This document shows positions 18,047 to 64,000 of a stretch of 64,000 nt of DNA, one piece after another (position 1 is the stretch's first letter; the number at the start of each line of letters is the position of its first letter). The position numbers and the translations under genes are program-made. The notes under the pieces were generated by a model. The model made no database searches, was not told where the DNA came from, and was given only the letters and a program-made list of their open reading frames with translations. Source of the stretch: an uncultured Pseudomonadales bacterium (lineage in GTDB: Bacteria > Patescibacteriota > Microgenomatia > UBA1400 > PJMF01); the NCBI GenBank assembly GCA_964637295.1, contig CAZWWE010000001.1, positions 252,312 through 316,311 on the forward strand, given 5' to 3'.

Positions 18047-18056
18047 GTTTTAGATC

Positions 18057-18625: not shown

Positions 18626-18633
18626 TAATTAGT

Positions 18634-18780: not shown

Positions 18781-18806
18781 AGGTTAGAGATTATATCATA
18801 AAAAAA

Positions 18807-21793: not shown

Positions 21794-21888
21794 AAAGATT
21801 TTACCTTCTCAATTATTTGGGGGCAGAGTAAAAACAAAAAATGTTTGCTTACTTATACACAAAGTTTTCCACAATTGGCAAGGGGCAA

Positions 21889-24078: not shown

Positions 24079-24079
24079 A

Positions 24080-25243: not shown

Positions 25244-25267
25244 GAGCTGTCAATAGTTTACTAAATT

Positions 25268-26122: not shown

Positions 26123-26208
26123 GAGTTATCTCATTTTAGCAGAAATATAGGTTGATTGTTTAGACTGAGCTTGACTGTTTAAAACTGAAGGTTGCCTCAA
26201 ATCAAATG

Positions 26209-27192: not shown

Positions 27193-30100
27193 AGCAGGTG
27201 GTTACTCCATCATTTAAAAGTGGTGGATAATTGCCTTTATTGGTTTCTGGTACTAAAGTTTCAATAATGGAAAAATTTCTTGGACTAGGATGATAAAAAA
27301 CACCGTTAAAATCTACTTCATAATGCAGATGAGGTCCGGTTGAATTACCCCGATTGCCCATGGGGCCAATCAAAAAGCCTTCTTCAGTGTTCATGCAGGA
27401 TTCTGCCTGTGACAGCTGATCATTTGGCGCCTCAAAATGAGCAAATAATAATTTGCGACTAGTGCCGCTGTCGTCAAACGTCAAAACATAATAACAACCA
27501 TAGCCGCTGTCGCTACAACCCTTAAAGCAAAGTTCACCAGCGTAGGGCACATAAACATTGGGAAATTTGCCGCCGCCGCCGATATCATATGCATCAGCAT
27601 AGCCTTTAGAAAGAGGAGATCGATGAGAAGCATCTGCGTCTGGAGTTCCGACGCCAAAAGGTAATTGAGAAATGCCTCCGGTCGTTGGCCAACAACCGGC
27701 ACCAGCACTGCAGTTGCCAAGACAGACTCTGGCGGCGGTTTTGAGATTGTCTTGACCAGAGATAAAATTATTTTGGTAATAAAAGTTAAGCTCGATGGTG
27801 TTAATGATGGCAGTGTGATTGTAATCTGAGCTTAGGTCGTCGAGGGTATAAGAAAAAGTCAAGTTTTCTCCGGCTGGAATAATAATAAAGTCTGTTTCTG
27901 CGGGACTGGGATTTGCCAGGGGATCATTGACGTTGGCTGGCACATAGCTTGGTTCTTGTGGTATTGAAGAACCAGGATCGTTGAGTGGCTTTTGATCGAG
28001 GGCTTGATTGGCTTTGATAATTTTTTTGAAGTAAGCAAAATCTAGATTTTTTTGTGTTGGTATGGCGGGTATGGGTTTGCCACTTTCTTCCCAACCTTTT
28101 TTGCTTTGTTTAAATTTGATTTGATCTGTAATGTTGTTTATTTGTAGCGAAAAATCTTCTTTGGGCTTAACGGTGACGGTGTATTCGATGGAGAGTGGAA
28201 AACCGGGATTTTCACATTTAGTGCCATTGTTTTCAGGATTGGTACAGCCCTTGACAATTTTGGCAGTTTTTTTCATTTCTGCATATTTGGAAGTTTTTTC
28301 AACAGATTTGTTAATTTCAGATTCATTGAAAGGAAAATCAGTTAAAAAAGCTGAATTGAGACTAGTTTGATAAATCAAAACCAAGGTGGCCGTGGTGCCA
28401 AAAGTAATTAGCACGGCGCGACCAGCAGTTTGCATGGCGGTAGAATAATGTTGGCTGAGCAAGCTTTTGGCGCCATGTGGCAGTTGGGATTCAATTTGTT
28501 GTTGAGCAGAGACGTTGCTGTGTAAAATTCCGCCACTGGCTCCTCCGGCTCCACCTAGCGATTTACCAGCGGCCCCCAACAATCCTCGACTGCCAAATAG
28601 TCCGTTTCTGAGTAAAAAATAACCAGGAGCTAATAGCAAAAGCCAAGGGAGCAAGGCAGAAAGAGCGGCTAAAATTAGTCCTAAAACTATTAGTGGCCAA
28701 TATTTTTTAATTAGCTCAAGAATTTTTTCCAAGCCCATCTCGATCAGCTGCTCTTTAATTTTTTTGATAATGGGCAGCGCTGTTTCAGCGGCGCGCAAGG
28801 CCTCGCCTAAACCACCGGCCGCATCAAGAGCTAAATAAAGTCCCTCACTCAAGGCTTTGCTGGCTAGTTTTTTACCTTTTTGTCCTAAGGCACTGTCGAG
28901 AAAAGCTGTGCCCTGGTAATTCTCTCCGGGTGCAAAAGCTCTTTGCACGTAGCCACTGTCATCTGCCATAAAAGCATCTGCTCCAAATTGTTCAGCCATC
29001 TGTAGCATGTAAAAGTCCATGGGATTGATTTGCGGCGCAATTTGTTTCTGAAATACTTCTAGGCTGTATTCTTGATATGTGACTCCTGGAGCATAATAAT
29101 CAAAAAAAACTTTGAGCGTGTTTTGCTGTTCTGCTTGAGAAAGTTTAGCAATCTCTGTTTCTAAATATTTTTTGATAAGTTCTTGTTGTTGTTCTTGAAA
29201 AGCTAGGAGCTCTCGATTGTTAGGGTCGGCAAGCTTTGCCAGGCCTTCGGTAATTTGTTTGCCTCCGTAGCTTAAATTGAGTGCACCCAAGCGGCGCAAG
29301 GCTGCTAATTTTTTTGGATCTTTTTTGATGGTTTCGAAAAGTTGTTCTGCTTGTTCTGGAGTATATTTTTCTAGGCCCAGTTCTCGACCAACTATATTGA
29401 TATAGATAGCTCTTTTGCGTTTCCAATAAAAAATGATCAAATTGGCCAATTCTTCGCTGTGAGCATCGAAATCTTGTCGATCTAGGCTGTTGCCAAAAAG
29501 ATTGACAAAGCGGCCATAATCGAAATTTTTGGCATCTGGAATTAGAAATTCTGGCGGCAAGCCCTGTTGAATAAAAACTTCAACGAGCGGGCGAACATTT
29601 TCGATCACCAAGCTCATTCTGGCTCGATCTTGAGAGTTGGTGATGCTAATCAATTTTTCGAGGAAGGCTTTTTCTAAATAATTTTCATCTTGAATGATAT
29701 TGAGCTCAGATTCGATAATTTTGGCGAAATTTGAGTTATCTTGCTGAGTTGTTAATAGTTCTTCAGCTTTTTGACTAGTTAAAACATTTTCCTCAGTAGT
29801 GTCATTTTTGGCTCTGGAGCCAAGCTGGTCTGCTGTGAGTGGCTCTTTTTCGTTGGCACGAATTTGCACTTGACCGCCCTGAGCAATATTTCTGACGGCA
29901 GTGTTGAGTAAATTTAAACCATGAACATCCATTAATAAGTTTAAGGCTGTTTGGTTGCTAAAATTAATTCTTTCTGCTGGCTCACTGATTAATTTATCCA
30001 GCGAAAATTGCCCGCTAAGCAACAGGTTTTCTACTTGTGCAAAAGCTCGATCCATTAATTGCTGTCTTATTGCTAATGGAAGCTGGTCAAAAGTAATCAC

Positions 30101-30925
30101 TGTGCCTGGCGGTAAGCCAATTTTTGCCAGCGAAGCCGCGTTGAAATATCTACTTAGAGCTTGATTGATGGTGATAATTGAGAGCGACTGTAAATAGAGC
30201 TTGGCTTGAGGATCGAGCTCAGAGATTTTGAGGGGAGGGGCTTGTTTAGGTGACTCATCAGGAGGCCTTGGCTCTGTTTCTTGACCAGCGGCTTCTGCGC
30301 CTTCTTCATTTTTTGTAGTACTTGGCCAGGCTATTCCAGCCCCAGAGCCTTGCTTTTGTTCCAAATCTTCTTCTACAGAACTTGTTTCTGTCGATTGAAT
30401 CGCTTCAACACTCAAGCTGGGTCGAAGAATTGCATAAATTAATCGAATTCTTTCAATAATTTGCCGTGAAGATTCATAGTCTTCAATTTTTTGTAGCTCT
30501 TCGAGGCTAATTTTTTCTTCTGCTGGAGAAACGCCAATTAAGCTAAAAGTATTTTCCAATCGGTCAAGTTCCACTCTTTGAGCTGAGTTAATAGAAATCT
30601 TATTACTGGTCAAGGAAGTGCGGATTTGTTCAACGAAATTTACTAGGTCCGAGAGAAACAAAAAGGGCTCTTTGCCGTCAACGGGAACAGTGCCGTTCTC
30701 GATATCATTGGCAGTGCTCAAGTCAAATTCGCCACCATAACTAAATCCTTCAATGGCAAAATTTCCCTTAACTTTTTTGTGGCCGGCCGCCTCATTGTAG
30801 AAATCACTAATCCAATCAATGCTTTTTTGAAGCACTTCACTGATTTGATCAGCACTAAGACTATCAACTCCAGCCAATTTTTTCAGCTTAATGCGAGTGT
30901 TTTGATTGATTTTCTCGTCCGCCAT
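27185..30925 (-). CDS. Giant T4SS-associated membrane protein with C-terminal M23 peptidoglycan endopeptidase domain
   Basis: 1246 aa. ~740-aa N-terminal region, then TM YWPLIVLGLILAALSALLPWLLLLAPGYFLL. Gly-rich GLLGAAGKSLGGAGGASGG. C-terminal M23 signature GNRGNSTGPHLHYEV. Confidence 0.6.
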   Translation of the reverse strand: MADEKINQNTRIKLKKLAGVDSLSADQISEVLQKSIDWISDFYNEAAGHKKVKGNFAIEGFSYGGEFDLSTANDIENGTVPVDGKEPFLFLSDLVNFVEQIRTSLTSNKISINSAQRVELDRLENTFSLIGVSPAEEKISLEELQKIEDYESSRQIIERIRLIYAILRPSLSVEAIQSTETSSVEEDLEQKQGSGAGIAWPSTTKNEEGAEAAGQETEPRPPDESPKQAPPLKISELDPQAKLYLQSLSIITINQALSRYFNAASLAKIGLPPGTVITFDQLPLAIRQQLMDRAFAQVENLLLSGQFSLDKLISEPAERINFSNQTALNLLMDVHGLNLLNTAVRNIAQGGQVQIRANEKEPLTADQLGSRAKNDTTEENVLTSQKAEELLTTQQDNSNFAKIIESELNIIQDENYLEKAFLEKLISITNSQDRARMSLVIENVRPLVEVFIQQGLPPEFLIPDAKNFDYGRFVNLFGNSLDRQDFDAHSEELANLIIFYWKRKRAIYINIVGRELGLEKYTPEQAEQLFETIKKDPKKLAALRRLGALNLSYGGKQITEGLAKLADPNNRELLAFQEQQQELIKKYLETEIAKLSQAEQQNTLKVFFDYYAPGVTYQEYSLEVFQKQIAPQINPMDFYMLQMAEQFGADAFMADDSGYVQRAFAPGENYQGTAFLDSALGQKGKKLASKALSEGLYLALDAAGGLGEALRAAETALPIIKKIKEQLIEMGLEKILELIKKYWPLIVLGLILAALSALLPWLLLLAPGYFLLRNGLFGSRGLLGAAGKSLGGAGGASGGILHSNVSAQQQIESQLPHGAKSLLSQHYSTAMQTAGRAVLITFGTTATLVLIYQTSLNSAFLTDFPFNESEINKSVEKTSKYAEMKKTAKIVKGCTNPENNGTKCENPGFPLSIEYTVTVKPKEDFSLQINNITDQIKFKQSKKGWEESGKPIPAIPTQKNLDFAYFKKIIKANQALDQKPLNDPGSSIPQEPSYVPANVNDPLANPSPAETDFIIIPAGENLTFSYTLDDLSSDYNHTAIINTIELNFYYQNNFISGQDNLKTAARVCLGNCSAGAGCWPTTGGISQLPFGVGTPDADASHRSPLSKGYADAYDIGGGGKFPNVYVPYAGELCFKGCSDSGYGCYYVLTFDDSGTSRKLLFAHFEAPNDQLSQAESCMNTEEGFLIGPMGNRGNSTGPHLHYEVDFNGVFYHPSPRNFSIIETLVPETNKGNYPPLLNDGVTTCYE

Positions 30926-38763: not shown

Positions 38764-39657
38764 CTAGGAAAGAATGCGAATACCAAAAATAATTTCCAAG
38801 AGTTGAGCGATCCAGTAGGCAGCAAATAAAATAATAAAACCAATGATGGCTGAGGTAATTTTTTGCTTCCCTTCGTCTAATGATTTGGAGTTATTAGCTC
38901 CAGATAACATTTGAAAACCTCCAAGCAACATGACGACGAATAAAATAATACCTGCGATGGGAAAAATGAAAAACTGCAGTGCTCGAGAAATAATTTTTCC
39001 AGGATTTGACAAATCTACGCTACTACCACCGATTTTAAAGGGATTGAGGCTTTCTAAGGTTGCCGCGCTAACTTCAACGTCATTAATTCCTACATCAGTA
39101 TTCTGACATTGACCATCTCGGTACCAGCCACAGCAACGAGTGTTACCAGTACTGCGATTGGGAATTGCCTCTTGATTAGAGCACACACACTTTTTGGCAT
39201 TTTGAGCATCGGGATCATATTCAGTGCCACAATAAACCTCGTTGACCTGAGGGGGAGCGCTGAGACATTGAGTTTTTTCTGGATTTAGCCAGCCGCAGCA
39301 GACTCTGTTGACCACATAATTATAGGACTGCCATTGTCCTCCTGGACAATCGCAAACCCCTCCCTGTGGGACGCTGGCTCTCATTCTGCTTTCACCACAG
39401 GCATAAATATTTGGATCCTTATTGGCGTAGCACTGACCTTCGATGGAAGAATAAGAGCCGCAGCAGTAATATATTTCACTAAGGACATTGCCGATAAAAT
39501 CTGGTTTATTATTAACATTACTGCAATTGCACATATTACTAACATCTTCTCCAAGTCGAGCTCTGAAAGTTTCACCGCATTGATATGCCTGGCTAGTATT
39601 AGTGAAAATTAAACAGAAAAAAACAGAAATAAATAGAGTTTTTAGTATTTTTTTCAT
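38764..39657 (-). CDS. Cys-rich secreted ectodomain fused to C-terminal VirB2-like pilin hairpin (paralog 9)
   Basis: Start at the internal ATG 39657 (signal peptide MKKILKTLFISVFFCLIFTNTSQA), 1 nt after the upstream gene's stop. CCGW/CxC-rich ectodomain. C-terminal IILFVVMLLGGFQMLSGANNSKSLDEGKQKITSAIIGFIILFAAYWIAQLL. Confidence 0.55.
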   Translation of the reverse strand: MKKILKTLFISVFFCLIFTNTSQAYQCGETFRARLGEDVSNMCNCSNVNNKPDFIGNVLSEIYYCCGSYSSIEGQCYANKDPNIYACGESRMRASVPQGGVCDCPGGQWQSYNYVVNRVCCGWLNPEKTQCLSAPPQVNEVYCGTEYDPDAQNAKKCVCSNQEAIPNRSTGNTRCCGWYRDGQCQNTDVGINDVEVSAATLESLNPFKIGGSSVDLSNPGKIISRALQFFIFPIAGIILFVVMLLGGFQMLSGANNSKSLDEGKQKITSAIIGFIILFAAYWIAQLLEIIFGIRILS

Positions 39658-39658
39658 C

Positions 39659-40519
39659 TTATTCTCCAAATCCTGGTATGCGTAAAATTGATACACCAAT
39701 AAATTGTAAGATAGTGACTGAAAAAATGACAAATAAAAGGCCAATAATTGCCGAAGTAATAATTTCTTTTGCCTCTTTGGTTTTATTTGGATCGCCTTGA
39801 GAAACTGATAGCATGAAAGAACCCACCAAAATCATAATTAGAACGATGCCGCCACCGGCTGTCAGGCCAATGGTCACGATGGTTGTAATAACACTTTCTG
39901 GATCACTAGGAATACAACCTACAGCTGTCCAGACGCCGCCATTTTGAAAACAAGCCTGACAAGCTTCGAATTGGCTGGTGCCTTCTTTGATTTGTTGTTT
40001 GCAAAGATCATAATTGGCAACTGCGTCAGTTTTTGTATTACATTGATTTTCCTCATTGCCGCATTGCAAAGCTGCTTGCGGAGAAGCAATGTAAATTTTT
40101 TGATCTGTAGTGGTGAGAGTGGGATATAAAATAACTGTTAGTTTATAAGAGCAATTAGGTTCAATATTTTTTCCTGCAATCACAATATCAACCGCGCCAT
40201 TTTTTACATCAAAAAAAGAATTATACATATCAGTAAATCCATTTTTGCAAGCTAAAGTTGTGCCGTCTAAATAAACTTTAATAGCTTTTCCATCAACAAT
40301 TTTGCCATCCGCATAAGCGATGTCGGTTAATTTCACATGCACATCTGTTCCAGCCTGGACACAGCCACTTAAAAAATTGCAATTTTGTCCATCTCTTTCT
40401 TGATAGACTTCCGTTGTCCCAATTCTGGCAGTCCCAGCCGCCAACACTTCTTTCACGTTGAGTGAAAAAAGTGAGCTAATCAATAAAAACACTAGAGCTA
40501 TTTTTCTCATTTTCGTCAC
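39659..40519 (-). CDS. Cys-rich secreted ectodomain fused to C-terminal VirB2-like pilin hairpin (paralog 8)
   Basis: Signal peptide MTKMRKIALVFLLISSLFSLNVKEVLA. Cysteine-rich ectodomain. C-terminal IVLIMILVGSFMLSVSQGDPNKTKEAKEIITSAIIGLLFVIFSVTILQFI. Confidence 0.55.
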   Translation of the reverse strand: MTKMRKIALVFLLISSLFSLNVKEVLAAGTARIGTTEVYQERDGQNCNFLSGCVQAGTDVHVKLTDIAYADGKIVDGKAIKVYLDGTTLACKNGFTDMYNSFFDVKNGAVDIVIAGKNIEPNCSYKLTVILYPTLTTTDQKIYIASPQAALQCGNEENQCNTKTDAVANYDLCKQQIKEGTSQFEACQACFQNGGVWTAVGCIPSDPESVITTIVTIGLTAGGGIVLIMILVGSFMLSVSQGDPNKTKEAKEIITSAIIGLLFVIFSVTILQFIGVSILRIPGFGE

Positions 40520-50257: not shown

Positions 50258-52486
50258 TTATAAATTCCTCTTCTTAGCGTATCTTTCACGACTATTGCGA
50301 ATCACTTTATCGCGATTTTGGTTGCTACTTTTAGCCAAGGGCAAAGTATAAGCAGGGAAGGGGCGACTGAGCACATTGTCGATGGAGATTTTGTTAATGA
50401 TTTGGTATTTATCCAAATTAACTAAGTCATCTTGAGTGTATAAATCACCATACTCAGCTTGAAAATAGGTAGCGTCACCAGCCCCCATGACAAAACTCAT
50501 GATGTTGCCACAGTTGCCAAAAATAGCTTGGCGCACTTCTTCTGGAATTTGATCAATATATTGATTGGCTAGAGTCAGATTAAGGCGATATTTACGGGCT
50601 TCAGAAAGAATTTTGATGAAAGCATCAGTTGCAAAATTTTGAAATTCATCGACGTAAAGATAAAAGTCGCGGCGTTTTTCTTCTGGAGTATTAACTCTAG
50701 CCATGGCGGCTAACTGAATTTTGGTGATCATCATCGCGCCAAGAAGAGTAGCGTTGTCTTCACCAAGCCGACCCTGAGATAAATTGACCAATAGAATTTT
50801 GCCTTGACTCATTAAGTCCTCAATACTAAAAGAAGATTGAGTGGTGTTGACGACATTACGGACAATTGGCGAAGAAACAAACTGGCCCACTTTATTAAGA
50901 ATAGAGGCGATGGATTCAGTGCGTTGACGCTCTTGCATCTTATTGTATTCATTAATCCAGAAATTTTTTAAGATCGGATCATCAAGCTTTTCGACGATAT
51001 TGTCGCGAAATTTCTTATTAGTCAATAGCTCGAGAATATCAGATAATTTAGCCTCTTTGCTTTTAAGTAGAGTTAATAAACAATTGCGTAAAATGTATTC
51101 AAGTCGAGGGCCCCAAGAGTAGCTATAAAGTTTTTGAAAAACTGAAATGATACCCGAAGCAATTAACTCACGATGAACAACATTTTCACCTTCAAAAAGA
51201 TTGATTTGCACGGTGCGTTCTTGATCAGCTGGGTCAAAGTAAATGACGTCATTAATGCGATGTTTGGGAATGTAATCAAGTAGGGTTTCAACTAAGTCGC
51301 CATGAGGATCGATGACGCACATGCCCTCGTTATGTTTGAGATCATTAATCGCCATGTTAGCGAGAAGAGTAGATTTACCGGTGCCAGTTTTGCCAATCAC
51401 ATAAAGATGGCGGCGACGGTCATTACGCAACAGACCATATTTGGTGTTGCGATTTTTATAAATGGTTTCAGCAATGACGTTAATGTTTTGGCGAATTTCT
51501 TCTGGCGTGTCTTGACCAACAATCGGCAAGTTTTCTGGTGCTTCGCCAAGCAATTTTTTGCCCCAAGTGATGTTGGGAATGTTGCTAAGTTTTTTACCAG
51601 GCAAATGAAAGAGAGTGGCGATTTCTTCTAGGCTTAAAATTAAACTGGGAGAAGCCTTGAAGCTTCGCTTTAGCATAGTTTTCAGAAAGGCTTTCTTAGC
51701 GAAATATCGTTTTTGCAATTGCAGAGCATTGCCTTCGCTTTGAGAAATAGCCTGATAAGCCGTGGCAATATTTTCCAGGATCAATTTGCTTTTTTGTGCT
51801 TGCTCGCTAAAAACTGCTATTTTGAAAGCAGCGCGCAAAGATCTTTGATTTAATTTTTGTTCAATTAGAGCTTTTTGCGGATGGAGAGAGAGGGCTTCTT
51901 GGGAGAGTGAAGCTTGTTGAGTAAAGGAAACTTCATTATCTAAGATTAATTGCAATAAAATTACGTCGTCGTCTTCATTTTTAGATAAAGTTGATAAAAG
52001 AGTAGCGAGTGGATCAAGCTCATTAAAGTCATGAAAAGTTTTGAGAGGTAAATAACTTTTGTTTTTAAGCTTTAAGCTCGCCAAACATGGCTTGATTGTA
52101 GTTTGGAGTCGATCAAGCAAAAGATCAGCTGGATCAAGCTGTAATTCGCTTAACACTGCTGCTGGATAACTAGCATGAAAAGCTCCCTTAAAATATTCAA
52201 GCAAACGCTCTGGCACACAAGCTAAAAAATGTAAGCGTTGTTTTTCTACCCAAATTTCAAAACTGATCGCTTCGGCTCGATTTAATAATTGATCCACAAA
52301 ATTGTTTTTTAAGTCTGGCAGAGTGGAGAGAAGTTGTACCGCCGCTTCTGCGGTTTCTTGACTATCTTTACTAGTTTTAATCTCGAGCAAGACATGATTT
52401 TTTAGCACAGCCCTAGTATAGCAAATCGCCTTCAGGCTGTCAGTTTGGCTGTCAGCGTGATGAAAAAGCTTTAACTTTATTAGCAA
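50258..52486 (-). CDS. VirD4/TrwB-like (AAA_10/TraG-D type) ATPase lacking N-terminal TMs
   Basis: Walker A HLYVIGKTGTGKSTLLANMAINDL and Walker B-like YLYVDEFQNFAT. 742 aa. No TM segments at the N-terminus. Confidence 0.5.
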   Translation of the reverse strand: MLIKLKLFHHADSQTDSLKAICYTRAVLKNHVLLEIKTSKDSQETAEAAVQLLSTLPDLKNNFVDQLLNRAEAISFEIWVEKQRLHFLACVPERLLEYFKGAFHASYPAAVLSELQLDPADLLLDRLQTTIKPCLASLKLKNKSYLPLKTFHDFNELDPLATLLSTLSKNEDDDVILLQLILDNEVSFTQQASLSQEALSLHPQKALIEQKLNQRSLRAAFKIAVFSEQAQKSKLILENIATAYQAISQSEGNALQLQKRYFAKKAFLKTMLKRSFKASPSLILSLEEIATLFHLPGKKLSNIPNITWGKKLLGEAPENLPIVGQDTPEEIRQNINVIAETIYKNRNTKYGLLRNDRRRHLYVIGKTGTGKSTLLANMAINDLKHNEGMCVIDPHGDLVETLLDYIPKHRINDVIYFDPADQERTVQINLFEGENVVHRELIASGIISVFQKLYSYSWGPRLEYILRNCLLTLLKSKEAKLSDILELLTNKKFRDNIVEKLDDPILKNFWINEYNKMQERQRTESIASILNKVGQFVSSPIVRNVVNTTQSSFSIEDLMSQGKILLVNLSQGRLGEDNATLLGAMMITKIQLAAMARVNTPEEKRRDFYLYVDEFQNFATDAFIKILSEARKYRLNLTLANQYIDQIPEEVRQAIFGNCGNIMSFVMGAGDATYFQAEYGDLYTQDDLVNLDKYQIINKISIDNVLSRPFPAYTLPLAKSSNQNRDKVIRNSRERYAKKRNL

Positions 52487-57792: not shown

Positions 57793-59886
57793 TTAATTTG
57801 CCACAATGTTTTGATCAGGAGTGAGAGCGCCGTCTTGAATGACTGCTTCAGTAGTCTCTTGATCTAAGAGTTGAGACAGTCCAGAGTTATTAGCTTGATT
57901 GAGATTGTTCAAGGTCGTTGATTCGCTAGCCGCATTGTTTGTAGTGCCACCAGCAGGAGCACTATTGGCAGCAGCCCCTTTTTGCTCCTCTTCCGCTTTC
58001 TTAGCAGCACTTTCTAGCTGCGCGTTAAGCTCATTCACTTCTTTTTCGACCAGTGTATATTCCTGACTATCTTTGGCTAATAAACTCATTCCACTGACTA
58101 AGGCATTTCTAGCTTCCAAAAGCTGATTATTGGCTTTATATGCCTGTGCCAGATAGTAGTAAGCCACAAAGAGGTCTGGTTTTCTTTCAATTGCCTGACT
58201 GAAGAAGTTAGCGGCTTCAGTGGCTTGTTTGGCATTTAAAAATAATTGGCCCAAAATCAATCTAATTTCTGGATTGTTGGGATTGTTGGCTGCTGCTTTG
58301 GCAAGGGCATTGAAAGCTTCTTGCATGGCTTGATCAGTTGAGCCCAATAGTTGCATATAAATTTGTGCCAATACTAACCAGTTCTGATAATTGTAAGGAT
58401 CAAGAATAGTGGCAGCCTTCGCTTCACGAATGGCTTCGTTGACCAATTGCAATACCTGTTCTTGTTCGGCAGCCGTCAAGTCGGTTTTATTAGAAAGGGC
58501 AATAGCGATTTCTAAATTCATCAAAGCATAGCTTTGTCTAATCGAATCAATTTCAAAAGCCATTTCTTTGGCACGGCGATGATAGTCGTAAGCTTTGACG
58601 ACATCATTTTTCATGACATAAGCATTGCTTTGATAGAGTAGGTGATAAGCAACAAAAGTTTTGCCCACAAAATAGCTGGCAAAGCCAAGTAAACTTAAGA
58701 AAACAACGTTACTGATTAAGAATAAATAATAACGAAACTTATCAGCCTTGCGTTGGGTCAAAGAGCCAAGCAGAGACTGACTCTTAAAAATCATTTTTGC
58801 GTAAGCATCTTGGTTACTACTCAAGAACAAAGCTAAACTCACTGCCAAAAGGGCTAACATCACCAAGTTGATTGGCGCAAATAACTGCCAAATGAAACTT
58901 GCCAGTATTAAGGTTTTTAACCAAGTATCATGATGTTCTTTTTCTAAGACGAGAATGCTTTTCCAGATGAAAAACAAATAGGCGAGAAAAGCTAATACGC
59001 CTGCGCTGACAATAAGGCTTAAGGGCACGTTAAAGGCTGAATCAAAGGTGAAATTCCAGTATTTTAAGCCATTGATCCACACGGGCTTAAGAGTATTGTA
59101 AGCATTGCCGTAAGCATCTGGGCCATAGCCGAACATGGCATTTTTCGTAAAAGCTAGACCGTCTCTAGCCACACTCGCACTAGCGCTAAGAGATAAACTT
59201 TGAAAAGCAGCTTCTTCTCCAGGCAAAATGGCCCAAATGTTGATGCCTAAGCCGATGGCAATAATAAAAGTACTAATTTTGATAAACCAAGAACTTTGCC
59301 ACTTTTTTTGATCAAAAACATTACTAAGGAGAACGGTTGAAAGAAATTGAATGGTGATAAATGTCGCTCCAGTTAAGGCAAAAATCAAACTATTGGGCAA
59401 TTCCAAAATACTGAAACGATTGATTAAAGATGCCAAGCCAAAGCCAAATAATTGTAAAACACTCAATAAACTCAAGATAATCGCCGCGGCGTTCATAGTT
59501 AAAACAAACCAGTGCTTGTATTTTTTCTTGAGCAAAGAAGGGGCTAATAAGATGATGCTAGTAAAACTTAAAAAAACTCCGCCCATGCCCAAAAATTGCT
59601 TAGTCGGATATTGATGACTGACTAAGCCAGAAATAGTGATTAGGCCAGCAAAAATTACTAGCGGCCAAGTCAATGGAGTTCTGAGAATGGTCCAGCTTTT
59701 TCTGCGCCAGCTAGAAATGATGAAGCCAAAAATTGTCAAAAAAGCCAAGGAAAAAAATAGGATCAGCTTACTGTTAAAAAGAGGATTGGTGATATACGGA
59801 ATAAAAAATACCGGTAACAAAGTTGCTAGTCCCACAAATAACCAATTGTAAACAGCACTTAGTTTGTTTTCTTTCATATCTGACAT
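57793..59886 (-). CDS. Polytopic membrane protein with O-antigen-ligase-like core and C-terminal TPR repeats
   Basis: About 10 predicted TMs in the first ~420 aa. C-terminal TPR-like repeats (AYYYLAQAYKANNQLLEARNAL). Confidence 0.45.
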   Translation of the reverse strand: MSDMKENKLSAVYNWLFVGLATLLPVFFIPYITNPLFNSKLILFFSLAFLTIFGFIISSWRRKSWTILRTPLTWPLVIFAGLITISGLVSHQYPTKQFLGMGGVFLSFTSIILLAPSLLKKKYKHWFVLTMNAAAIILSLLSVLQLFGFGLASLINRFSILELPNSLIFALTGATFITIQFLSTVLLSNVFDQKKWQSSWFIKISTFIIAIGLGINIWAILPGEEAAFQSLSLSASASVARDGLAFTKNAMFGYGPDAYGNAYNTLKPVWINGLKYWNFTFDSAFNVPLSLIVSAGVLAFLAYLFFIWKSILVLEKEHHDTWLKTLILASFIWQLFAPINLVMLALLAVSLALFLSSNQDAYAKMIFKSQSLLGSLTQRKADKFRYYLFLISNVVFLSLLGFASYFVGKTFVAYHLLYQSNAYVMKNDVVKAYDYHRRAKEMAFEIDSIRQSYALMNLEIAIALSNKTDLTAAEQEQVLQLVNEAIREAKAATILDPYNYQNWLVLAQIYMQLLGSTDQAMQEAFNALAKAAANNPNNPEIRLILGQLFLNAKQATEAANFFSQAIERKPDLFVAYYYLAQAYKANNQLLEARNALVSGMSLLAKDSQEYTLVEKEVNELNAQLESAAKKAEEEQKGAAANSAPAGGTTNNAASESTTLNNLNQANNSGLSQLLDQETTEAVIQDGALTPDQNIVAN

Positions 59887-59916
59887 ATGTTAAGATTAAA
59901 GGAAATTGAAATAAAA

Positions 59917-60660
59917 ATGAAGAAGCAAAACGGCTTGACTCTTATCGAAATTCTGGTTGTAGTAGCAGTCTTGGCTTTGCTTTTACTAGCCTTGTTTAAG
60001 GTTTTTAAAGTAGATGTTAATCGCAGCAAAGATGCAGAGCGCAAGGCTGATCTGCAAGAAATTAAATTGGCTTTTGAAAATTATTACAATGATCATCAAA
60101 CTTATCCACCAGAAGAAGTCTTGGCTGATTGCCAAAGTGAAGCTTTGCGTCCTTACTTAAAAAATGTTCCTTGTGACCCAGAAACTGGCGAGCCCTATCT
60201 TTATTTGCCAGCTCCTGGCGATGGTGATAATAGTGCTGGCTATCGTTTGCTGAGCATTTTGACTGATAAAAGTGATCCAATTATCGAGAAAATTGGTTGC
60301 CAAGATGGCTGCGGCGTGCCAGAAGACCACCCTTTGGTTGGCAATAGTTTTAATTATGTTTATGGAATTGCCGAAGGAGTGCCTTTGGTTTTGACTAAAA
60401 AAGTTTTACCATCTGTGACCAGCACCTTGACACCCTCGCCAACGCCAACAACTGTGCCTACAGTGATTGACAGTTATTGTGACAGTCACTTGTGTTATTG
60501 TTGTTCTAACTCAGCCTATACTTCGACCGAAAGCTGTAACGTTTGGTCACGAGGTAGCAAAACCGGAGAAGTTCAAGAAAAAACTGACAATAATTGTGAC
60601 ATGGGGCCTTATCGCACTGCCGCCGAATGTTATAGTGCTACGCCTTGCGTAAGGCAGTAA
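59917..60660 (+). CDS. Type IV pilin/pseudopilin (GspG-like) 1 with Cys-rich C-terminal region
   Basis: Class III signal MKKQNG|LTLIEILVVVAVLALL. GspG-like SKDAERKADLQEIKLAFENYYNDHQTYP. Start taken at the internal ATG (the track ORF begins at 59887). Confidence 0.7.
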   Translation: MKKQNGLTLIEILVVVAVLALLLLALFKVFKVDVNRSKDAERKADLQEIKLAFENYYNDHQTYPPEEVLADCQSEALRPYLKNVPCDPETGEPYLYLPAPGDGDNSAGYRLLSILTDKSDPIIEKIGCQDGCGVPEDHPLVGNSFNYVYGIAEGVPLVLTKKVLPSVTSTLTPSPTPTTVPTVIDSYCDSHLCYCCSNSAYTSTESCNVWSRGSKTGEVQEKTDNNCDMGPYRTAAECYSATPCVRQ

Positions 60661-60665
60661 AAATT

Positions 60666-61262
60666 ATGCTCAAAAATTTAGCTAAACCTGGCTCAATTAA
60701 AGCTGGTTCAATTAAAGCTAGCCAAAAAGCTTTTACCTTACTCGAGCTATTAGTGGTAATTGCCATTTTAGCTTTACTAACTGGTTTAGGTTTGCGCACT
60801 TTTGGCAGTGTCCAAGAAAAATCTCGAGATAGTCGTCGCAAACAAGATTTGCAAAACATTAGTAAAGCTTTAGAAATCTATTTTAACGACTTCAAACGAT
60901 ATCCAGCGGCTGCGGCGGGACAAATTATTGCTTGTGGAGATGACGCTGCCGAAACTTGCCAATGGGGGCAAACTTGGGATAACACCAGTGATAATACTCT
61001 ATACATGAGCGTTTTGCCCAAAGACCCTGGTGGGAGTAGCTATTATTATTGGGCTGATGAACAGGGCCGCAGCTATCGTTTATTTGCTTATTTAGAAAAT
61101 CTAGAAGACGATAGCGTTGTGAAGAATGCTGAAGCAGAAGCCACTTTTTATAGTGACGCAGCATGCCGAATAGTCAACGACTCTCTCGTTGATAACAGCT
61201 GTAATTATGTTTTGACTAGCAGCAACTTGAGTTCAACTCCAATTTTAGTAGATGGCGACTGA
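60666..61262 (+). CDS. Type IV pilin/pseudopilin (GspG-like) 2 with extended leader containing GSIKA duplication
   Basis: ...PGSIKAGSIKASQKA|FTLLELLVVIAILALL. SRDSRRKQDLQNISKALEIYFNDFKRYP. Start uncertain (track: 60645). Confidence 0.6.
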   Translation: MLKNLAKPGSIKAGSIKASQKAFTLLELLVVIAILALLTGLGLRTFGSVQEKSRDSRRKQDLQNISKALEIYFNDFKRYPAAAAGQIIACGDDAAETCQWGQTWDNTSDNTLYMSVLPKDPGGSSYYYWADEQGRSYRLFAYLENLEDDSVVKNAEAEATFYSDAACRIVNDSLVDNSCNYVLTSSNLSSTPILVDGD

Positions 61263-61282
61263 TTTAGGAACCAAAAATATAT

Positions 61283-61753
61283 ATGAAAAAAAATGCTTTC
61301 ACCCTGATTGAATTGTTAGTAGTAATTGCTGTTTTGGGAGTGCTCATCGCCGTGATTTTACCTAATTTAATTGGAGTGCGTGCTCGGGCAAGAGATAGTG
61401 CTCGTAAAAATGACCTCAGACAATTAAAAATTGCTTTGCGCATGTATTACAACGATCACCAAACTTATCCGGCTGATGATGACAACGGGGGAATTGTTGC
61501 CTGCGGTGAAACTGACGATGAAACTGTGCTTTGTCCCAATCCAGAAGATGGCAGTTTTGCTAAAAGCGAAGTGGTTTACATGAAAAAAATGCCAGAGAGC
61601 GATCAATTTTTTTATGCACAACAAGCCAGTGGCGAAGATTTTCTATTGGCTACCATTTTGGAAAGTCCCTCTGACTCTGACATTGCGGCCAGCGTGGAGC
61701 ATTGTCAGGTTGAAACTCCAGTACCTGCTACATATTATTTATGTGCTGATTAA
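61283..61753 (+). CDS. Type IV pilin/pseudopilin (GspG-like) 3
   Basis: MKKNA|FTLIELLVVIAVLGVLIAVILPNL. ARDSARKNDLRQLKIALRMYYNDHQTYP. Confidence 0.7.
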   Translation: MKKNAFTLIELLVVIAVLGVLIAVILPNLIGVRARARDSARKNDLRQLKIALRMYYNDHQTYPADDDNGGIVACGETDDETVLCPNPEDGSFAKSEVVYMKKMPESDQFFYAQQASGEDFLLATILESPSDSDIAASVEHCQVETPVPATYYLCAD

Positions 61754-61758
61754 TTGAC

Positions 61759-61800
61759 TTTTCTTTTTTAATTGAATTGAATTGAATTTAATTTAATTGA
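61759..61800. repeat. Pentanucleotide microsatellite (AATTG/AATTT)n in convergent intergenic spacer
   Basis: ttaattgaattgaattgaatttaatttaattgaatg between the pilin-3 stop and the stop of the downstream minus-strand gene. Confidence 0.6.
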
Positions 61801-64000
61801 ATGATCCACCAGTTGAAAATGACGTTGTGATCAAGTGGATAGTCGATGCCCACTGTAAATTGACCCTCGTTTTCTTTGGTAAAGCTACTGTCAGCGATTT
61901 TGTTTTTAACGTAAAGCACCTGGTTATTAGTAGAGTTCATCGGAGTGATATAAATCATGCTATTTTCCTCAACTTTATCACTTTCAATGCTCACTTCTGT
62001 TTGGCCAGCTTGAAGAATGGCTTGGCCAGCACTGCGGCCAGCAGTTGTTTGACCGGGCTGAGTGCCGTCGGTTCCATTTTGTCCGAGTCGCAATGATCCA
62101 GTGAGAGCTAAATCACCTGTGGCTGAAAAACTGGCAACGGGAGTGGCTTGTTCATTGATAAATTCAAAATTATTTTGTCTGACAATGGTTTGATCAGAAT
62201 TTGGATCCTGATCAAGAGAGGCGAGTTGTACCTTAATACTTTCGTCAGGATTTTCGGCACTAATTAAATTGGTCAAAAGAGTGTCTTTGACTTTCAGTTT
62301 GTCTTCAACTTCCAAAACGCCAGCAACTTTGAGATCACCAGTAATACTGACAAAACCCCGCCCATCTAATTGCATGAGGCCTGCCATCAGAGATAATTTG
62401 CCTTGACCAGCTGGCTGAATGGAGAAAGTAAAGTCTGCGTCGTCAGCTAATTGTGGCTGATAACTAATGAAATCCTTGCCGATGATGGTGTCTTCGCCAA
62501 GCATGAGACTTTGACCCAGTTTAAGAGAGTTGCTAATTAGAGCATTGCCATTGACCTCAAAGTATTGATTGATGAAAGCAGTGTCGGCAATTAGATCTAA
62601 GCTTCCATCACTTTGAGCTAGCTCTTCAAGATCAGTGAGTGCAGCGGCGCTGGCCTGGTAATTGGTGTTAAATTCTGCTTGAAGTTGTTGAATGTATTCT
62701 TCAGTTTGTTTGCTGTTTTCACCAAAAAGTGTAGCAATGAGACTAGGTTCTTGCAGTGTTTCGTTGATTTTATCGCTTAGTCTCTCTTCTAAGCCACTAA
62801 TAACATTGGCCTTAATACTTTGTGCCTCAATATTTTCAGCATAAAGCGTGCCACTGACGGTCGCATTTTCTAAATTGGCCAATTTAGACTCGAGATAGTC
62901 CATGCGAGCAGAATTAACTTCTAGATGTTCAGCTATTACATTGTCAGCGGTTAAACTGCCAGCCACAGAAGCATCTTCTGCCATTAATTGACCCAGACGA
63001 CTGGTTCCAGCCACTTCTAATTCTCCGCTGAATGAAGCATTTCCTTCACTATCGAAGCTAATCACTGTTTCTTGATCCTGATTTTGAATCATTAATTTAC
63101 CCAAAGCACTGCTGGCGGAAGAATCTTGATTAGCGCCAAGTTGTAGGGCAATATCTTGTGCCTTGATTTCCAAAGTTTCTTCGTTGGGGGCTTGAATTTC
63201 TGCAACTTCTAATTGACCAACTTGCAATTTGCCGATGATTGCTTGGGCGACTGCTAGGGCAGAATCTAAAGCTTCTCCCGTACTAGTGTTGATCACTTGC
63301 CAGCCAGCTTGAATTTTATAGTTTACTAGCTGAGCTATTTCAGTTAAGCCAGTCAAAGCTTGTTGAGCAAATGATGGAGTAGCCATGACATCGCTCACAA
63401 TAGCTAGTACGCGATCGGTTTCGCCACCTGGACTCCAATTTTCAAAAGAACGACCCAGACTGAGTTCACCGACTTTGGCTTTGCGAGCTAAACCGGGTTG
63501 GGCGGCGGCCGTTAGGTAATCACCTTTTTTAATTGGTTCACTGTCTGGAGAAATTTTCACTGGCACACGTCCGTCTAAGGCTAGAAGACGACGATTGTCG
63601 GCTTTAATACCCAGAGCTGTGCCAGCTTGAGTAGAAATTACCCCCAGCAACATGGGATCATTGTTTTCTCGGCTTTTACGTAAAATTGGTACGCCAAATT
63701 CATCCATTTCGCCAGTAATTGCCACCACGTCTCCTGGTCCAATTTCAGCGTCATTGACAGTGTACCATTCAGCCAAGTCAGCTCCGAAAACAATGGCTTC
63801 AAGACGCAATTCTTGTTCTTCGCCAGTGTAATTGTAAACGCGTACCTTATTGGTATCGGTTTGTTCAATTTTATAGCCATTTTGATAAGTGAAGCTAATA
63901 TTGTCGATGGCCGGCTGATAAGCAGGATTAGTGGTGCTAAAAATTACTCGATATTGGAAATAGTTGTTTGGTGTCGAGGTAATTTTTGTACCCGAAGTCG
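61788..64000 (-). CDS. Large hypothetical protein; 5' end lies beyond the window (frame open to position 64000)
   Basis: The track ORF 61788..63809 begins at a TTG. The same frame continues upstream without a stop (..TSGTKITSTPNNYFQYRVIFSTTNPAYQPAIDNISFTYQNGYKIEQTDTNKVRVYNYTGEEQE-LRLEAIVFG..) to the window edge. No enzymatic motifs recognised. Confidence 0.4.
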   Translation of the reverse strand, partial: TSGTKITSTPNNYFQYRVIFSTTNPAYQPAIDNISFTYQNGYKIEQTDTNKVRVYNYTGEEQELRLEAIVFGADLAEWYTVNDAEIGPGDVVAITGEMDEFGVPILRKSRENNDPMLLGVISTQAGTALGIKADNRRLLALDGRVPVKISPDSEPIKKGDYLTAAAQPGLARKAKVGELSLGRSFENWSPGGETDRVLAIVSDVMATPSFAQQALTGLTEIAQLVNYKIQAGWQVINTSTGEALDSALAVAQAIIGKLQVGQLEVAEIQAPNEETLEIKAQDIALQLGANQDSSASSALGKLMIQNQDQETVISFDSEGNASFSGELEVAGTSRLGQLMAEDASVAGSLTADNVIAEHLEVNSARMDYLESKLANLENATVSGTLYAENIEAQSIKANVISGLEERLSDKINETLQEPSLIATLFGENSKQTEEYIQQLQAEFNTNYQASAAALTDLEELAQSDGSLDLIADTAFINQYFEVNGNALISNSLKLGQSLMLGEDTIIGKDFISYQPQLADDADFTFSIQPAGQGKLSLMAGLMQLDGRGFVSITGDLKVAGVLEVEDKLKVKDTLLTNLISAENPDESIKVQLASLDQDPNSDQTIVRQNNFEFINEQATPVASFSATGDLALTGSLRLGQNGTDGTQPGQTTAGRSAGQAILQAGQTEVSIESDKVEENSMIYITPMNSTNNQVLYVKNKIADSSFTKENEGQFTVGIDYPLDHNVIFNWWIIQLN

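What the first reader, a model, noticed from the sequence alone, without database searches (positions are those of the whole stretch)
59917..64000. Three tandem GspG-like pseudopilins with atypical prepilin leaders, followed by a >730-aa gene running off the window
All three have the FTL(I/L)E(I/L)L N-terminal helix and the GspG-type (R/K)xxDLxx(L/I)xxALxxY(Y/F)ND motif. Two have Ala rather than Gly at the -1 cleavage position (…QKA|FTLLE, …KNA|FTLIE) and the first has Leu at +1 (G|LTLIE). The second leader is unusually long (about 22 aa) and contains an exact 15-nt tandem duplication (60691-60719, GSIKA-GSIKA). The first pilin carries a Cys-rich C-terminal half (8 Cys). The convergent downstream gene (at least 737 aa, partial) may encode a tip or adhesin subunit. 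No prepilin peptidase or PilB/PilT ATPases lie in this window.
Basis: seen in the sequence. Interest (0 to 1): 0.55.

Follow-up and report, generated by a model that had tools for sequence, protein, structure and literature searches.

The report
Three type IV pilin genes (Microgenomatia)
These are three ordinary but real type IV pilus subunit genes of an ultrasmall candidate-phyla-radiation (CPR, Microgenomatia) bacterium; the leader peptides that looked odd are normal for this lineage, and the large neighbouring gene is a separate phage-fibre-like surface protein, not a pilus subunit.

Summary
Three co-directional ORFs (59917-60660, 60666-61262, 61283-61753) all carry a prepilin signal that scores above the Pfam and NCBIfam cut-offs. 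No pilB, pilC, pilD or pilT lies in the window.

Corrections:
- The 15-nt duplication matches 14 of 15 bases, so it is not exact.
- All GspG-equivalog scores are far below cut-off.

The window is the origin-of-replication (oriC) region of a Patescibacteria (Microgenomatia, "Pacebacteria"-type) chromosome. The trio is conserved in the same order in about 40 related genomes. In more distant Microgenomatia, its in-order best full-length matches sit directly after pilB-pilT-pilC-pilin-pilD. They are therefore type IV pilus pilins whose assembly machinery is encoded elsewhere.

The "atypical" leaders are normal for the lineage:
- Orthologues switch between Gly and Ala at position -1.
- Of 223 lineage pilin-like ORFs, 29% have Ala(-1) and 16% have a non-Phe residue at +1.
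- The GSIKA repeat is identical in two further metagenome assemblies and absent from a variant strain.

Extra findings:
- Pilin 1 is modular: pilin domain, Pro/Thr linker, and a lineage-restricted 8-Cys module.
- A roughly 0.9-kb mosaic segment spanning pilin 1 and pilin 2 differs between near-identical strains.
- The upstream neighbour is a divergent Wzy_C-like/TPR membrane protein that lacks the family's catalytic His.
- The downstream gene is about 2,700 aa in relatives, membrane-anchored, and resembles phage tail fibres.

Modest interest.

The parts
59917..60660 (+). Pilin 1 prepilin, 247 aa from ATG 59917 (alternative ATG at 59887). Leader MKKQNG, mature N-terminus LTLIEIL with Glu at +5. 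Contains a GspG-like pilin domain with 4 conserved Cys.
   Evidence: PF07963 31.5 bits and TIGR02532 23.8 bits. 53 full-length homologues, aligned as A2. AF2 mean confidence (pLDDT) 81, with an alpha1 helix at residues 9-60 and a small beta-sheet. Foldseek best matches are EpsG and PulG (probability 0.95-0.99, E about 0.05), followed by type IV pilins.
60400..60459 (+). Pro/Thr/Ser-rich linker of pilin 1 (residues ~162-181, ...KVLPSVTSTLTPSPTPTTVP...).
   Evidence: pLDDT below 50 over residues 162-181. Low-complexity and length-variable among orthologues.
60472..60657 (+). C-terminal 8-Cys module of pilin 1 (residues 186-247). Cys pattern in orthologues: C-x4-C-x-CC-x10-C-x8-C-x10-C-x5-C. The window copy carries a 14-aa insert.
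   Evidence: Four of these eight Cys are invariant and the other four nearly invariant (at least 90%) across the 25 aligned family members. pLDDT 55-87. No credible homologue outside the pilin 1 family among 1.84 billion representatives. No structural match.
60666..61262 (+). Pilin 2 prepilin, 198 aa from ATG 60666. 22-aa leader ending QKA, mature N-terminus FTLLELL, 4 Cys.
   Evidence: PF07963 29.9 bits. PF08334 T2SSG 26.5 bits, above its cut-off of 21. Orthologues aligned. The exact sequence is on an NCBI contig of 320,694 bp and in Logan assemblies.
60683..60719 (+). Imperfect 15-nt tandem repeat (2.5 copies) inside the cleaved leader of pilin 2 (KPGSI-KAGSI-KA).
   Evidence: TRF period 15, 90% match, score 60. 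Identical in L001 and L002, absent from L003.
61283..61753 (+). Pilin 3 prepilin, 156 aa. 5-aa leader MKKNA, mature N-terminus FTLIELL, 4 Cys including a C-terminal Cys-x12-Cys loop.
   Evidence: PF07963 29.5 bits and TIGR02532 28.4 bits. Most conserved of the three among most of the closer orthologues. The exact protein occurs on 8 metagenome contigs.
60190..61100 (.). Mosaic (recombinant) segment. In a variant strain this stretch is 65-89% identical, while both flanks are 97-100% identical. It covers the 3' two-thirds of pilin 1 and the leader, alpha1 helix and first two-thirds of pilin 2.
   Evidence: Sliding-window identity of L084 and L003 against the window. L084 and L003 overlap each other at 99.5%.
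61788..64000 (-). 3' part (736 codons) of a giant convergent gene, at least 1,463 aa in L001 and about 2,735 aa in relatives. A surface protein with phage-fibre-like C-terminal modules; not a pilin.
   Evidence: N-terminal transmembrane anchor in L009. AF2 is confident only for residues 78-205 and 655-736 of the fragment. Foldseek matches are phage decoration proteins, the phi29 head-fibre base, the gp12 C-terminus, and K1-lyase/tailspike C-terminal domains. Only a sub-cut-off K1-lyase_C match on the 736-aa window fragment (18.9 bits vs 27); no Pfam match at all on the 1,463-aa L001 fragment, and no PHROG or PDB-sequence match.
57793..59886 (-). Divergently transcribed neighbour, 697 aa: a polytopic membrane domain distantly related to Wzy_C (O-antigen-ligase-like), followed by C-terminal TPR repeats. 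Its adjacency to the pilins is conserved.
   Evidence: TPR hits. No direct Wzy_C hit. Full-length homologues P0147, P0148 and P0149 show a Wzy_C match at residues ~165-305 (P0147 and P0149 above the cut-off, P0148 just below), which aligns to query residues 173-305. The family's conserved His is replaced by Phe. Adjacency is kept in rearranged loci.

Best explanation
The three genes encode subunits (pilins) of a type IV pilus in a monoderm Patescibacteria (Microgenomatia, 'Pacebacteria'-type) cell.

Proposed mechanism:
- Each protein is inserted into the membrane by its N-terminal class III signal.
- A PilD-type A24 prepilin peptidase, encoded elsewhere in the genome, cuts after Gly(-1) in pilin 1 or Ala(-1) in pilins 2 and 3.
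- The same peptidase presumably N-methylates the new Leu or Phe N-terminus.
- The hydrophobic alpha1 helix with Glu at +5 then lets a PilB/PilC motor polymerise the subunits into a filament.

The trio is an ancient, order-conserved set. In this lineage it has been separated from the pilB-pilT-pilC-pilD operon and sits near oriC.

What is shown:
- The signal motif.
- The pilin fold of pilin 1.
- Conservation of the trio.
- In-order, near full-length best matches to operon-embedded pilins in relatives.
- Gly/Ala interchange at -1.

What is inferred:
- Cleavage and methylation.
- Filament assembly.
- Division of labour. Pilin 3 (smallest; most conserved among most of the closer orthologues) may be the main or core subunit. 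Pilins 1 and 2 are larger and mosaic between strains, so they are probably exposed, low-abundance subunits. Pilin 1 would display its 8-Cys module on a Pro/Thr stalk as a binding tip.

The long GSIKA-repeat leader is removed on processing, so it is probably a neutral strain-specific expansion.
For: - Prepilin domain above curated cut-offs in all three proteins.
- AF2 model of pilin 1 shows the alpha1 helix and small beta-sheet typical of pilins, and its Foldseek matches are only pseudopilins and type IV pilins.
- The best PDB sequence matches are pilin alpha1 helices.
- 76 related loci were found. Nearly all record titles that name a lineage name Patescibacteria or Microgenomates-group bacteria.
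- The order rho-M23-obg-(Wzy_C-like/TPR)-p1-p2-p3-(giant gene) is kept in about 40 loci.
- In L063, Pfam confirms T2SSE (444 bits), a second T2SSE, T2SSF, a pilin, and A24_N_bact plus Peptidase_A24. These are followed directly by the best near full-length matches of p1, p2 and p3, in that order.
- In L064, L067, L071, L075 and L078 the best matches of p1, p2 and p3 occur in the same order, next to motif-level signs of the ATPase and/or peptidase genes. L051 fits for p1 and p2 only.
- The -1 residue switches between Gly and Ala among orthologues. Across the lineage it is Gly in 158 and Ala in 65 of 223 pilin-like ORFs, and nothing else.
- PilD cleaves after Gly or Ala (PMC3244431).
- Type IV pili are reported as nearly universal in Patescibacteria, with poorly conserved and often modular pilins (PMC11623550).
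Against: - No pilB, pilC, pilD or pilT lies in the 64-kb window, and the rest of this genome could not be searched.
- There is no expression, processing or filament evidence.
- GspG-family scores are sub-threshold for pilins 1 and 3, so finer classification is open.
- Which subunit is the major one is not determined. In relatives another pilin lies between pilC and pilD and could be the major subunit.
- Synteny of the whole region, housekeeping genes included, is conserved. Position alone therefore says little about function.
Confidence: 0.85

Rival explanations
1. They are type II secretion system pseudopilins (GspG-like), forming a short periplasmic piston.
For: PF08334 T2SSG is above cut-off for pilin 2 (26.5 against 21). 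TIGR01710 is the top NCBIfam hit for all three. The best Foldseek hits for pilin 1 are EpsG and PulG.
Against: - TIGR01710 scores of 39-55 bits are far below the cut-off of 88.85.
- T2SSG is below cut-off for pilins 1 and 3.
- The Foldseek E-values are weak (about 0.05).
- Patescibacteria are proposed to lack an outer membrane (PMC12102498), so there is no secretin-gated compartment.
- The corresponding operon in relatives contains a second, PilT-sized T2SSE ATPase, which is characteristic of retractile pili.
- Pilins 2 and 3 have paired Cys, including a C-terminal Cys-x12-Cys loop. From general knowledge this resembles the disulfide loop of type IVa pilins rather than GspG.
Confidence: 0.03
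2. They build a competence (Com-type) pseudopilus or pilus dedicated to DNA uptake rather than to adhesion or motility.
For: Weak, sub-cut-off similarity to ComGC, ComGE and ComGF. A pilin in the L063 operon has a weak, sub-cut-off ComP_DUS hit. From general knowledge, Patescibacteria depend on imported nucleotides and some are naturally transformable.
Against: - All Com-family scores are well below cut-off (for example ComGC 30.4 against 75).
- In Saccharibacteria the one pilus system tested (T4P-2) did not contribute to competence (PMC11623550).
- This reading is not exclusive of the main explanation, because the same pilus could do both jobs.
Confidence: 0.1
3. They are pilin-like membrane proteins that are not assembled into filaments: relics separated from their operon, or anchors for other surface structures such as the neighbouring giant protein.
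For: The trio is detached from any assembly genes in this lineage. It is flanked by a conserved membrane protein and a giant surface protein.
Against: - All three genes are intact.
- The signal motif, Glu at +5 and all Cys are conserved across about 40 genomes at 40-75% identity, which indicates purifying selection on pilin-specific features.
- Pilin genes located away from the machinery are common (PMC3244431).
Confidence: 0.04

Closest known systems
Type IV pilins of Patescibacteria and monoderm bacteria, for example Nanosynbacter lyticus TM7x PilA1/PilA2 with their minor pilins (PMC11623550)
   Same: Class III signal, Glu at +5, lollipop fold, several pilin genes in tandem, some with extra C-terminal modules, weak sequence-level resemblance to type II secretion pseudopilins, and pilin genes partly away from the machinery.
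   Different: A different class (Microgenomatia). I did not test for sequence relatedness beyond alpha1. The module on pilin 1 is a small 8-Cys domain rather than a beta-jelly-roll or beta-propeller. None of it has been studied experimentally.
GspG/PulG/EpsG major pseudopilin of type II secretion (TIGR01710, PF08334)
   Same: The alpha1-C motif (R/K)xxDLxx(L/I)xxALxxYxxD and a small globular domain. These are the best Foldseek matches for pilin 1.
   Different: Scores are far below the equivalog cut-off. No type II secretion gene was found in the window. The lineage is monoderm. Conserved disulfide-forming Cys are present. Pilin 1 carries an added linker and module.
Geobacter PilA-N, Myxococcus PilA and Thermus PilA (solved type IV pilins)
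   Same: These are the best PDB sequence matches (E = 1e-13 to 5e-8), all over residues 1-65.
   Different: Only the N-terminal helix aligns. The globular domains are unrelated in sequence.
Pilin-specific O-oligosaccharyltransferases TfpO/PilO, TfpM and PglL (Wzy_C enzymes encoded next to pilin genes; PMC9829042, PMC3643930)
   Same: The upstream neighbour is a polytopic membrane protein homologous to Wzy_C-carrying proteins, and it is kept next to the pilin genes even in rearranged loci. Pilin 1 has a Ser/Thr/Pro-rich stretch.
   Different: No direct Wzy_C hit. The conserved catalytic His is replaced by Phe. It has a long TPR tail and is 697 aa rather than 420-600 aa. None of the pilins ends in Ser or Thr.
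Phage tail-fibre, preneck-appendage and tailspike proteins (phi29 gp12 and gp8.5, K1 lyase)
   Same: The two confidently modelled domains of the downstream giant protein match these folds. There is also a weak K1-lyase_C Pfam hit.
   Different: It is a chromosomal gene conserved in about 25 genomes. It has an N-terminal transmembrane anchor and a Gly-rich region, is about 2,700 aa long, and has no phage gene context. Overall model confidence is low (pLDDT 47.6).

Membership tests
Type IV pilin / prepilin-type proteins (PF07963, TIGR02532) | N-terminal class III signal: short basic leader, Gly or Ala at -1, a hydrophobic stretch of about 20 aa, and Glu at +5. Must score above the curated HMM cut-off. 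| tested here: met
   All three score 29.5-31.5 bits against 21.2 (PF07963) and 23.8-28.4 against 16.3 (TIGR02532). The motifs were read directly from the sequence.
Type IV pilin / prepilin-type proteins (PF07963, TIGR02532) | Lollipop fold: a long alpha1 helix packed on a small beta-sheet. | tested here: met
   Pilin 1 only: AF2 pLDDT 81, helix at residues 9-60 plus strands, and Foldseek hits restricted to pilins and pseudopilins at the top of the list. Pilins 2 and 3 were not modelled.
Type IV pilin / prepilin-type proteins (PF07963, TIGR02532) | Genetic association with PilB, PilC and PilD. | tested here: inconclusive
   Absent from the window. In-order best full-length matches of the trio follow pilB-pilT-pilC-pilin-pilD in L063 (Pfam; reciprocal matches). 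Five further loci show the same order next to motif-level signs of the machinery genes. The rest of this genome could not be searched.
Type IV pilin / prepilin-type proteins (PF07963, TIGR02532) | Cleavage and N-methylation by the prepilin peptidase, and incorporation into a filament. | not testable with these tools
   Requires proteomics, a co-expression assay or cryo-electron tomography.
GspG major pseudopilin (TIGR01710 equivalog; PF08334) | Score above the equivalog cut-off. | tested here: not met
   39.1, 54.2 and 55.3 bits against 88.85. PF08334 gives 18.3, 26.5 and 16.9 against 21, so only pilin 2 passes.
GspG major pseudopilin (TIGR01710 equivalog; PF08334) | Type II secretion context: secretin GspD, GspC/L/M, GspE/F, and a diderm envelope. 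| tested here: not met
   No such Pfam hit in the window ORFs. The relatives' operon has a second, PilT-sized T2SSE ATPase. The lineage is proposed to lack an outer membrane (PMC12102498). Whole-genome absence was not tested.
Wzy_C O-oligosaccharyltransferase / O-antigen ligase (PF04932), for the upstream neighbour | Wzy_C domain detectable. | tested here: inconclusive
   No direct hit even at E = 10 or less. Homologues aligning over about 90% of the length (E = 3e-42 to 4e-36) show a Wzy_C match (38.3 and 34.7 bits for P0149 and P0147 against a cut-off of 31.7; 28.1 bits for P0148, below it) in the aligned region.
Wzy_C O-oligosaccharyltransferase / O-antigen ligase (PF04932), for the upstream neighbour | Conserved catalytic His in the ...HN.yL... 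motif, required for activity (PMC9829042). | tested here: not met
   The window protein and its close orthologues read SAFN(V/L)PL, whereas the distant members P0160 and P0162 read K(A/V)HNEYL.
Pilus tip / minor pilin, for the downstream giant gene | Class III signal, or co-transcription with the pilins. | tested here: not met
   Opposite strand. The full-length orthologue in L009 begins with a basic stretch and one transmembrane helix, and has no G/A-FTLxE motif.

The most novel reading that the evidence does not exclude
Pilin 1 may be a previously undescribed modular pilin. Its lineage-restricted 8-Cys knot, held on a Pro/Thr stalk, would be the host- or substrate-recognition tip of the Microgenomatia pilus. 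The mosaic replacement of the pilin 1 and pilin 2 exposed parts between near-identical strains would then reflect switching of binding specificity. The conserved His-less Wzy_C-like/TPR neighbour would be a dedicated pilin accessory factor, either a glycosylase using a non-canonical mechanism or an assembly chaperone.
Probability: 0.15. Interest if true: 0.5.

Novelty: new member of a known kind. Interest (0 to 1): 0.3.

Why it matters
Type IV pili are the best-supported host-contact organelles of CPR bacteria, but experimental work covers only Saccharibacteria.

This locus defines four things for the large, uncultivated class Microgenomatia:
- An order-conserved core trio of pilins.
- Evidence that Ala(-1) is routine there, which is useful for pilin prediction tools and annotation.
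- A modular pilin with a new Cys-rich domain.
- A strain-level recombination hotspot within the pilin genes.

These give concrete targets for studies of host range. As a discovery it is incremental, because the genes are what a standard annotation pipeline would call prepilin-type proteins.

Tried and rejected
1. Pilin O-glycosylase idea for the upstream gene.
- Transitive homology to Wzy_C and conserved adjacency were found.
- There is no direct Pfam hit and the catalytic His is missing.
- The idea is kept only as a low-probability reading.

2. Search for the 8-Cys module elsewhere.
- An exhaustive HMMER search gave one true family member.
- It also gave two spurious repeat-protein hits, driven by the window-specific insert SKTGEVQEKTD.

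3. Downstream gene as a giant pilin. Rejected after reading the N-terminus of its orthologue.

4. Searches for the giant protein. Nothing beyond a sub-cut-off K1-lyase_C hit on the window fragment came from Pfam, PHROGs, PDB sequence or PDB profile searches. Only the fold search of the two confident AF2 domains was informative.

5. Rfam and tRNA scans of the window found nothing.

6. The promoter and terminator scan around the operon gave no more hits than shuffled sequence.

7. PF22434 (PilW_C), precomputed as 'weak' for pilin 1, was not reproduced at E = 0.01 or less.

8. Finding a single-copy GSIKA allele. The exact pilin 2 forms a cluster of one at 90% identity. No intermediate allele is available. 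The only variant strain carries a wholly different leader.

Full report
**What is in the sequence**

The region holds three co-directional ORFs with gaps of 5 and 20 nt:
- 59917-60660, with the longest ORF starting at 59887.
- 60666-61262, with the longest ORF starting at TTG 60645.
- 61283-61753.

Each ORF matches the prepilin N-terminal methylation motif above curated cut-offs. PF07963 scores are 31.5, 29.9 and 29.5 bits against 21.2, and TIGR02532 also passes.

The leaders read:
- Pilin 1: MKKQNG|LTLIEIL.
- Pilin 2: MLKNLAKPGSIKAGSIKASQKA|FTLLELL.
- Pilin 3: MKKNA|FTLIELL.

All three have Glu at +5.

- The 15-nt duplication matches 14 of 15 bases (GGC against GGT). Tandem Repeats Finder (TRF) sees 2.5 copies at 60683-60719.
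- Pilin 1 has AF rather than AL in the quoted motif.
- Pilin 1 has 12 Cys in total, 8 of them in its last ~60 residues.

**Where the window comes from**

The window is a ~38% GC chromosome segment around the origin of replication (oriC). It carries dnaA, dnaN, recF, yidC, jag, rho and obg. It also carries a conjugation-type type IV secretion system (T4SS): VirB4-like, PrgI, VirD4-like, and several PF18895 pilin-like ORFs.

This layout matches what has been described for Microgenomatia (PMC12102498).

A scan of one genome per species with the pilin 1 family profile returned 76 loci. Nearly all record titles that name a lineage name Patescibacteria or Microgenomates-group bacteria. The closest are 'Pacebacteria' and Microgenomatus; more distant ones are Shapiro-, Woese-, Gottesman- and Collierbacteria.

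No ORF in the window hits T2SSE, T2SSF or Peptidase_A24, and motif scans found none.

**What the three genes are**

The trio is conserved as a unit. The order rho - M23/LysM peptidase - obg - (membrane/TPR gene, minus strand) - pilin 1 - pilin 2 - pilin 3 - (giant gene, minus strand) recurs in about 40 loci. Pilin identities there range from about 75% down to about 30%. Cys counts and signal motifs are retained.

In more distant Microgenomatia the same three pilins occur in the same order and lie immediately downstream of a complete pilus operon. They were recognised by near full-length best matches.

In L063, Pfam confirms the following:
- T2SSE, 444 bits (PilB-like).
- A second, shorter T2SSE (PilT-like).
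- T2SSF.
- A pilin.
- A24_N_bact plus Peptidase_A24 (PilD).
- The three best-matching pilins, then more pilins.

In L064, L067, L071, L075 and L078 the best matches of all three pilins occur in the same order, next to motif-level signs of the ATPase and/or peptidase genes. In L051 this holds for pilins 1 and 2 only.

This is the strongest evidence that the window's genes are type IV pilus subunits whose machinery is encoded elsewhere.

The AF2 model of pilin 1 has a mean confidence (pLDDT) of 81. It shows a long alpha1 helix and a small sheet. Its top structural matches are the pseudopilins EpsG and PulG and type IV pilins, all with weak E-values.

By sequence, only the first ~65 residues match solved structures. 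The best matches are Geobacter PilA-N, then GspG, then Myxococcus, Thermus and Neisseria pilins. The quoted 'GspG motif' is therefore a general feature of this pilin class.

Scores against the GspG equivalog are far below its cut-off: 39-55 bits against 88.85. Three things together make 'type II secretion pseudopilin' the wrong label:
- These low scores.
- The proposed lack of an outer membrane in the phylum (PMC12102498).
- The PilT-like gene in the relatives' operon.

**Are the leaders atypical?**

They are not atypical for this lineage.
- Orthologues of pilin 2 have Ala or Gly at -1 in roughly a 2:1 ratio.
- Pilin 3 is mostly Ala, with one Gly.
- Pilin 1 is mostly Gly, with Ala in L023.

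Among 223 distinct pilin-like ORFs in the 76 loci, -1 is Gly in 158 and Ala in 65. No other residue occurs, although the search pattern allowed ten. At +1, Phe occurs in 186 and I, L, V, M or Y in 37.

Cleavage after Gly or Ala is the accepted specificity of PilD (PMC3244431).

Pilin 2 leaders elsewhere are about 5-13 residues long and end in (S)QKA or QKG. The window's 22-residue leader is a strain-specific expansion of a segment that is discarded on processing.

The repeat is identical in two other metagenome assemblies, L001 (SRR9878565) and L002 (SRR9860463). It is therefore not an artefact of one assembly.

**Strain variation**

A variant strain is represented by L084 and L003, which overlap at 99.5%. 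It is 97-100% identical to the window on both sides. Between about 60190 and 61100 it is only 65-89% identical.

This ~0.9-kb mosaic covers:
- The globular part, linker and Cys module of pilin 1.
- The leader, alpha1 helix and most of the globular part of pilin 2.

Pilin 3 is identical at the protein level. The variant's pilin 2 leader is MFKTKHKQA| with no GSIKA. This pattern indicates recombinational allele exchange at the exposed parts of pilins 1 and 2.

**Pilin 1 is modular**

After the pilin domain, which has four conserved Cys, comes a disordered Pro/Thr/Ser linker at residues ~162-181. It is followed by a ~60-residue module with eight Cys: four invariant and four nearly invariant (at least 90%) across the family.

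An exhaustive search of 1.84 billion representatives with this module found only a member of the same pilin family. Two other hits were repeat proteins matching the window-specific insert and are spurious. No structural match was found for the module.

Modular minor pilins are known in Saccharibacteria (PMC11623550). This is therefore a new module on a known design.

**The neighbours**

*Upstream gene (57793-59886, minus strand).* It has about ten hydrophobic segments and C-terminal TPR repeats.
- It has no direct Wzy_C hit, even at E = 10 or less.
- Homologues that align over about 90% of its length show a Wzy_C match in the aligned region, two of the three above the Pfam cut-off.
- Its adjacency to the pilins survives rearrangement. 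In L052, L055-L057, L061, L065 and L072 it lies co-directionally just downstream of them, and the alignments include the membrane domain.
- Wzy_C enzymes encoded next to pilin genes are the hallmark of pilin O-glycosylation (PMC9829042, PMC3643930).
- However, the histidine required for activity in that family is replaced by Phe here.

I therefore do not file it as an oligosaccharyltransferase. It is a conserved pilin-associated membrane protein of unknown role.

*Downstream gene.* It is convergent with the pilins.
- It is at least 1,463 aa in L001 and about 2,735 aa in L009 and L011.
- Its orthologue starts with a basic stretch and a single transmembrane helix.
- It contains a Gly-rich repeat region.
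- Apart from a sub-cut-off K1-lyase_C hit on the window fragment (18.9 bits against 27), it has no Pfam, PHROG or PDB-sequence match.

The AF2 model of the window fragment is poor overall (pLDDT 47.6). It has two confident domains. One resembles phage capsid-decoration proteins, the phi29 head-fibre base and the gp12 C-terminus. The other resembles the C-terminal domain of K1 lyase and tailspikes.

The gene is best read as an independent, fibre-like surface protein. It is not a pilin.

**Mechanism and confidence**

I put 0.85 on the following account:
- All three proteins are PilD-processed pilins.
- They are assembled by a PilB/PilC(/PilT) machine encoded elsewhere.
- Ala(-1) is a normal substrate.
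- The GSIKA expansion is a neutral change in the leader.

Which of the three is the major subunit is not settled. Pilin 3 is the smallest and, among most of the closer orthologues, the most conserved. In relatives, however, a further pilin lies between pilC and pilD.

The roles of the 8-Cys module, the mosaic segment and the Wzy_C-like neighbour are inference only.

**Novelty and interest**

These are new members of a known kind. Interest is modest (0.3). The value lies in:
- Defining a conserved core pilin trio for Microgenomatia.
- Documenting Ala(-1) usage in the lineage.
- Identifying a new pilin module.
- Identifying a recombination hotspot.

Noticed in passing
window 60190-61100 (compared with L084 and L003): A sharp mosaic. 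A variant strain is 97-100% identical on both flanks but 65-89% identical across the 3' two-thirds of pilin 1 and the 5' two-thirds of pilin 2. This suggests recombinational allele exchange. The contig L083 from the same study ends just inside pilin 1, at window position 59972.
   Followed up: partly
window 61770-61802: The pentanucleotide AATTG is repeated 6.6 times. The array spans the gap between the convergent genes and encodes the last five codons (IIQLN*) of the giant gene. No terminator-like hairpin was found there.
   Followed up: no
window 59884-59889: Back-to-back divergent start codons form the palindrome CATATG. That leaves 0 nt between the Wzy_C-like/TPR gene and the long form of pilin 1, or 30 nt to the ATG at 59917. 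The upstream peptide MLRL(K/N) is conserved in many orthologues, so the true start of pilin 1 is ambiguous.
   Followed up: partly
window 57793-59886 (minus strand): A conserved pilin-adjacent membrane/TPR protein, homologous to Wzy_C-carrying proteins but with the family's catalytic His replaced by Phe (SAFN against KAHNEYL).
   Followed up: yes
window 60540-60581 (pilin 1 residues ~209-222): A 14-residue insert (SRGSKTGEVQEKTD) in the 8-Cys module. It is present only in this strain and in its 90%-identical relative P0001. It caused spurious database hits to repeat proteins.
   Followed up: yes
window 4683-8118, 21889-30925, 38764-40519 and 50258-52486: A conjugation-type type IV secretion system (VirB4-like, PrgI, VirD4-like, and a 1,246-aa protein with an M23 domain) plus at least five PF18895 'T4SS pilin' ORFs, next to dnaA and dnaN. 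This is the arrangement reported for Microgenomatia (PMC12102498).
   Followed up: partly
window 18000-21800: The cumulative GC skew reaches its minimum at about 18-20 kb, beside dnaN and dnaA. This is consistent with the replication origin.
   Followed up: no
L035 and L040: Two tandem paralogues of the Wzy_C-like/TPR gene lie next to the pilins in these rearranged loci.
   Followed up: no
L001 6070-10461 (extension of the giant gene): A long Gly-rich (GGxGG...) repeat region lies upstream of the part seen in the window. No family match was found for it.
   Followed up: partly
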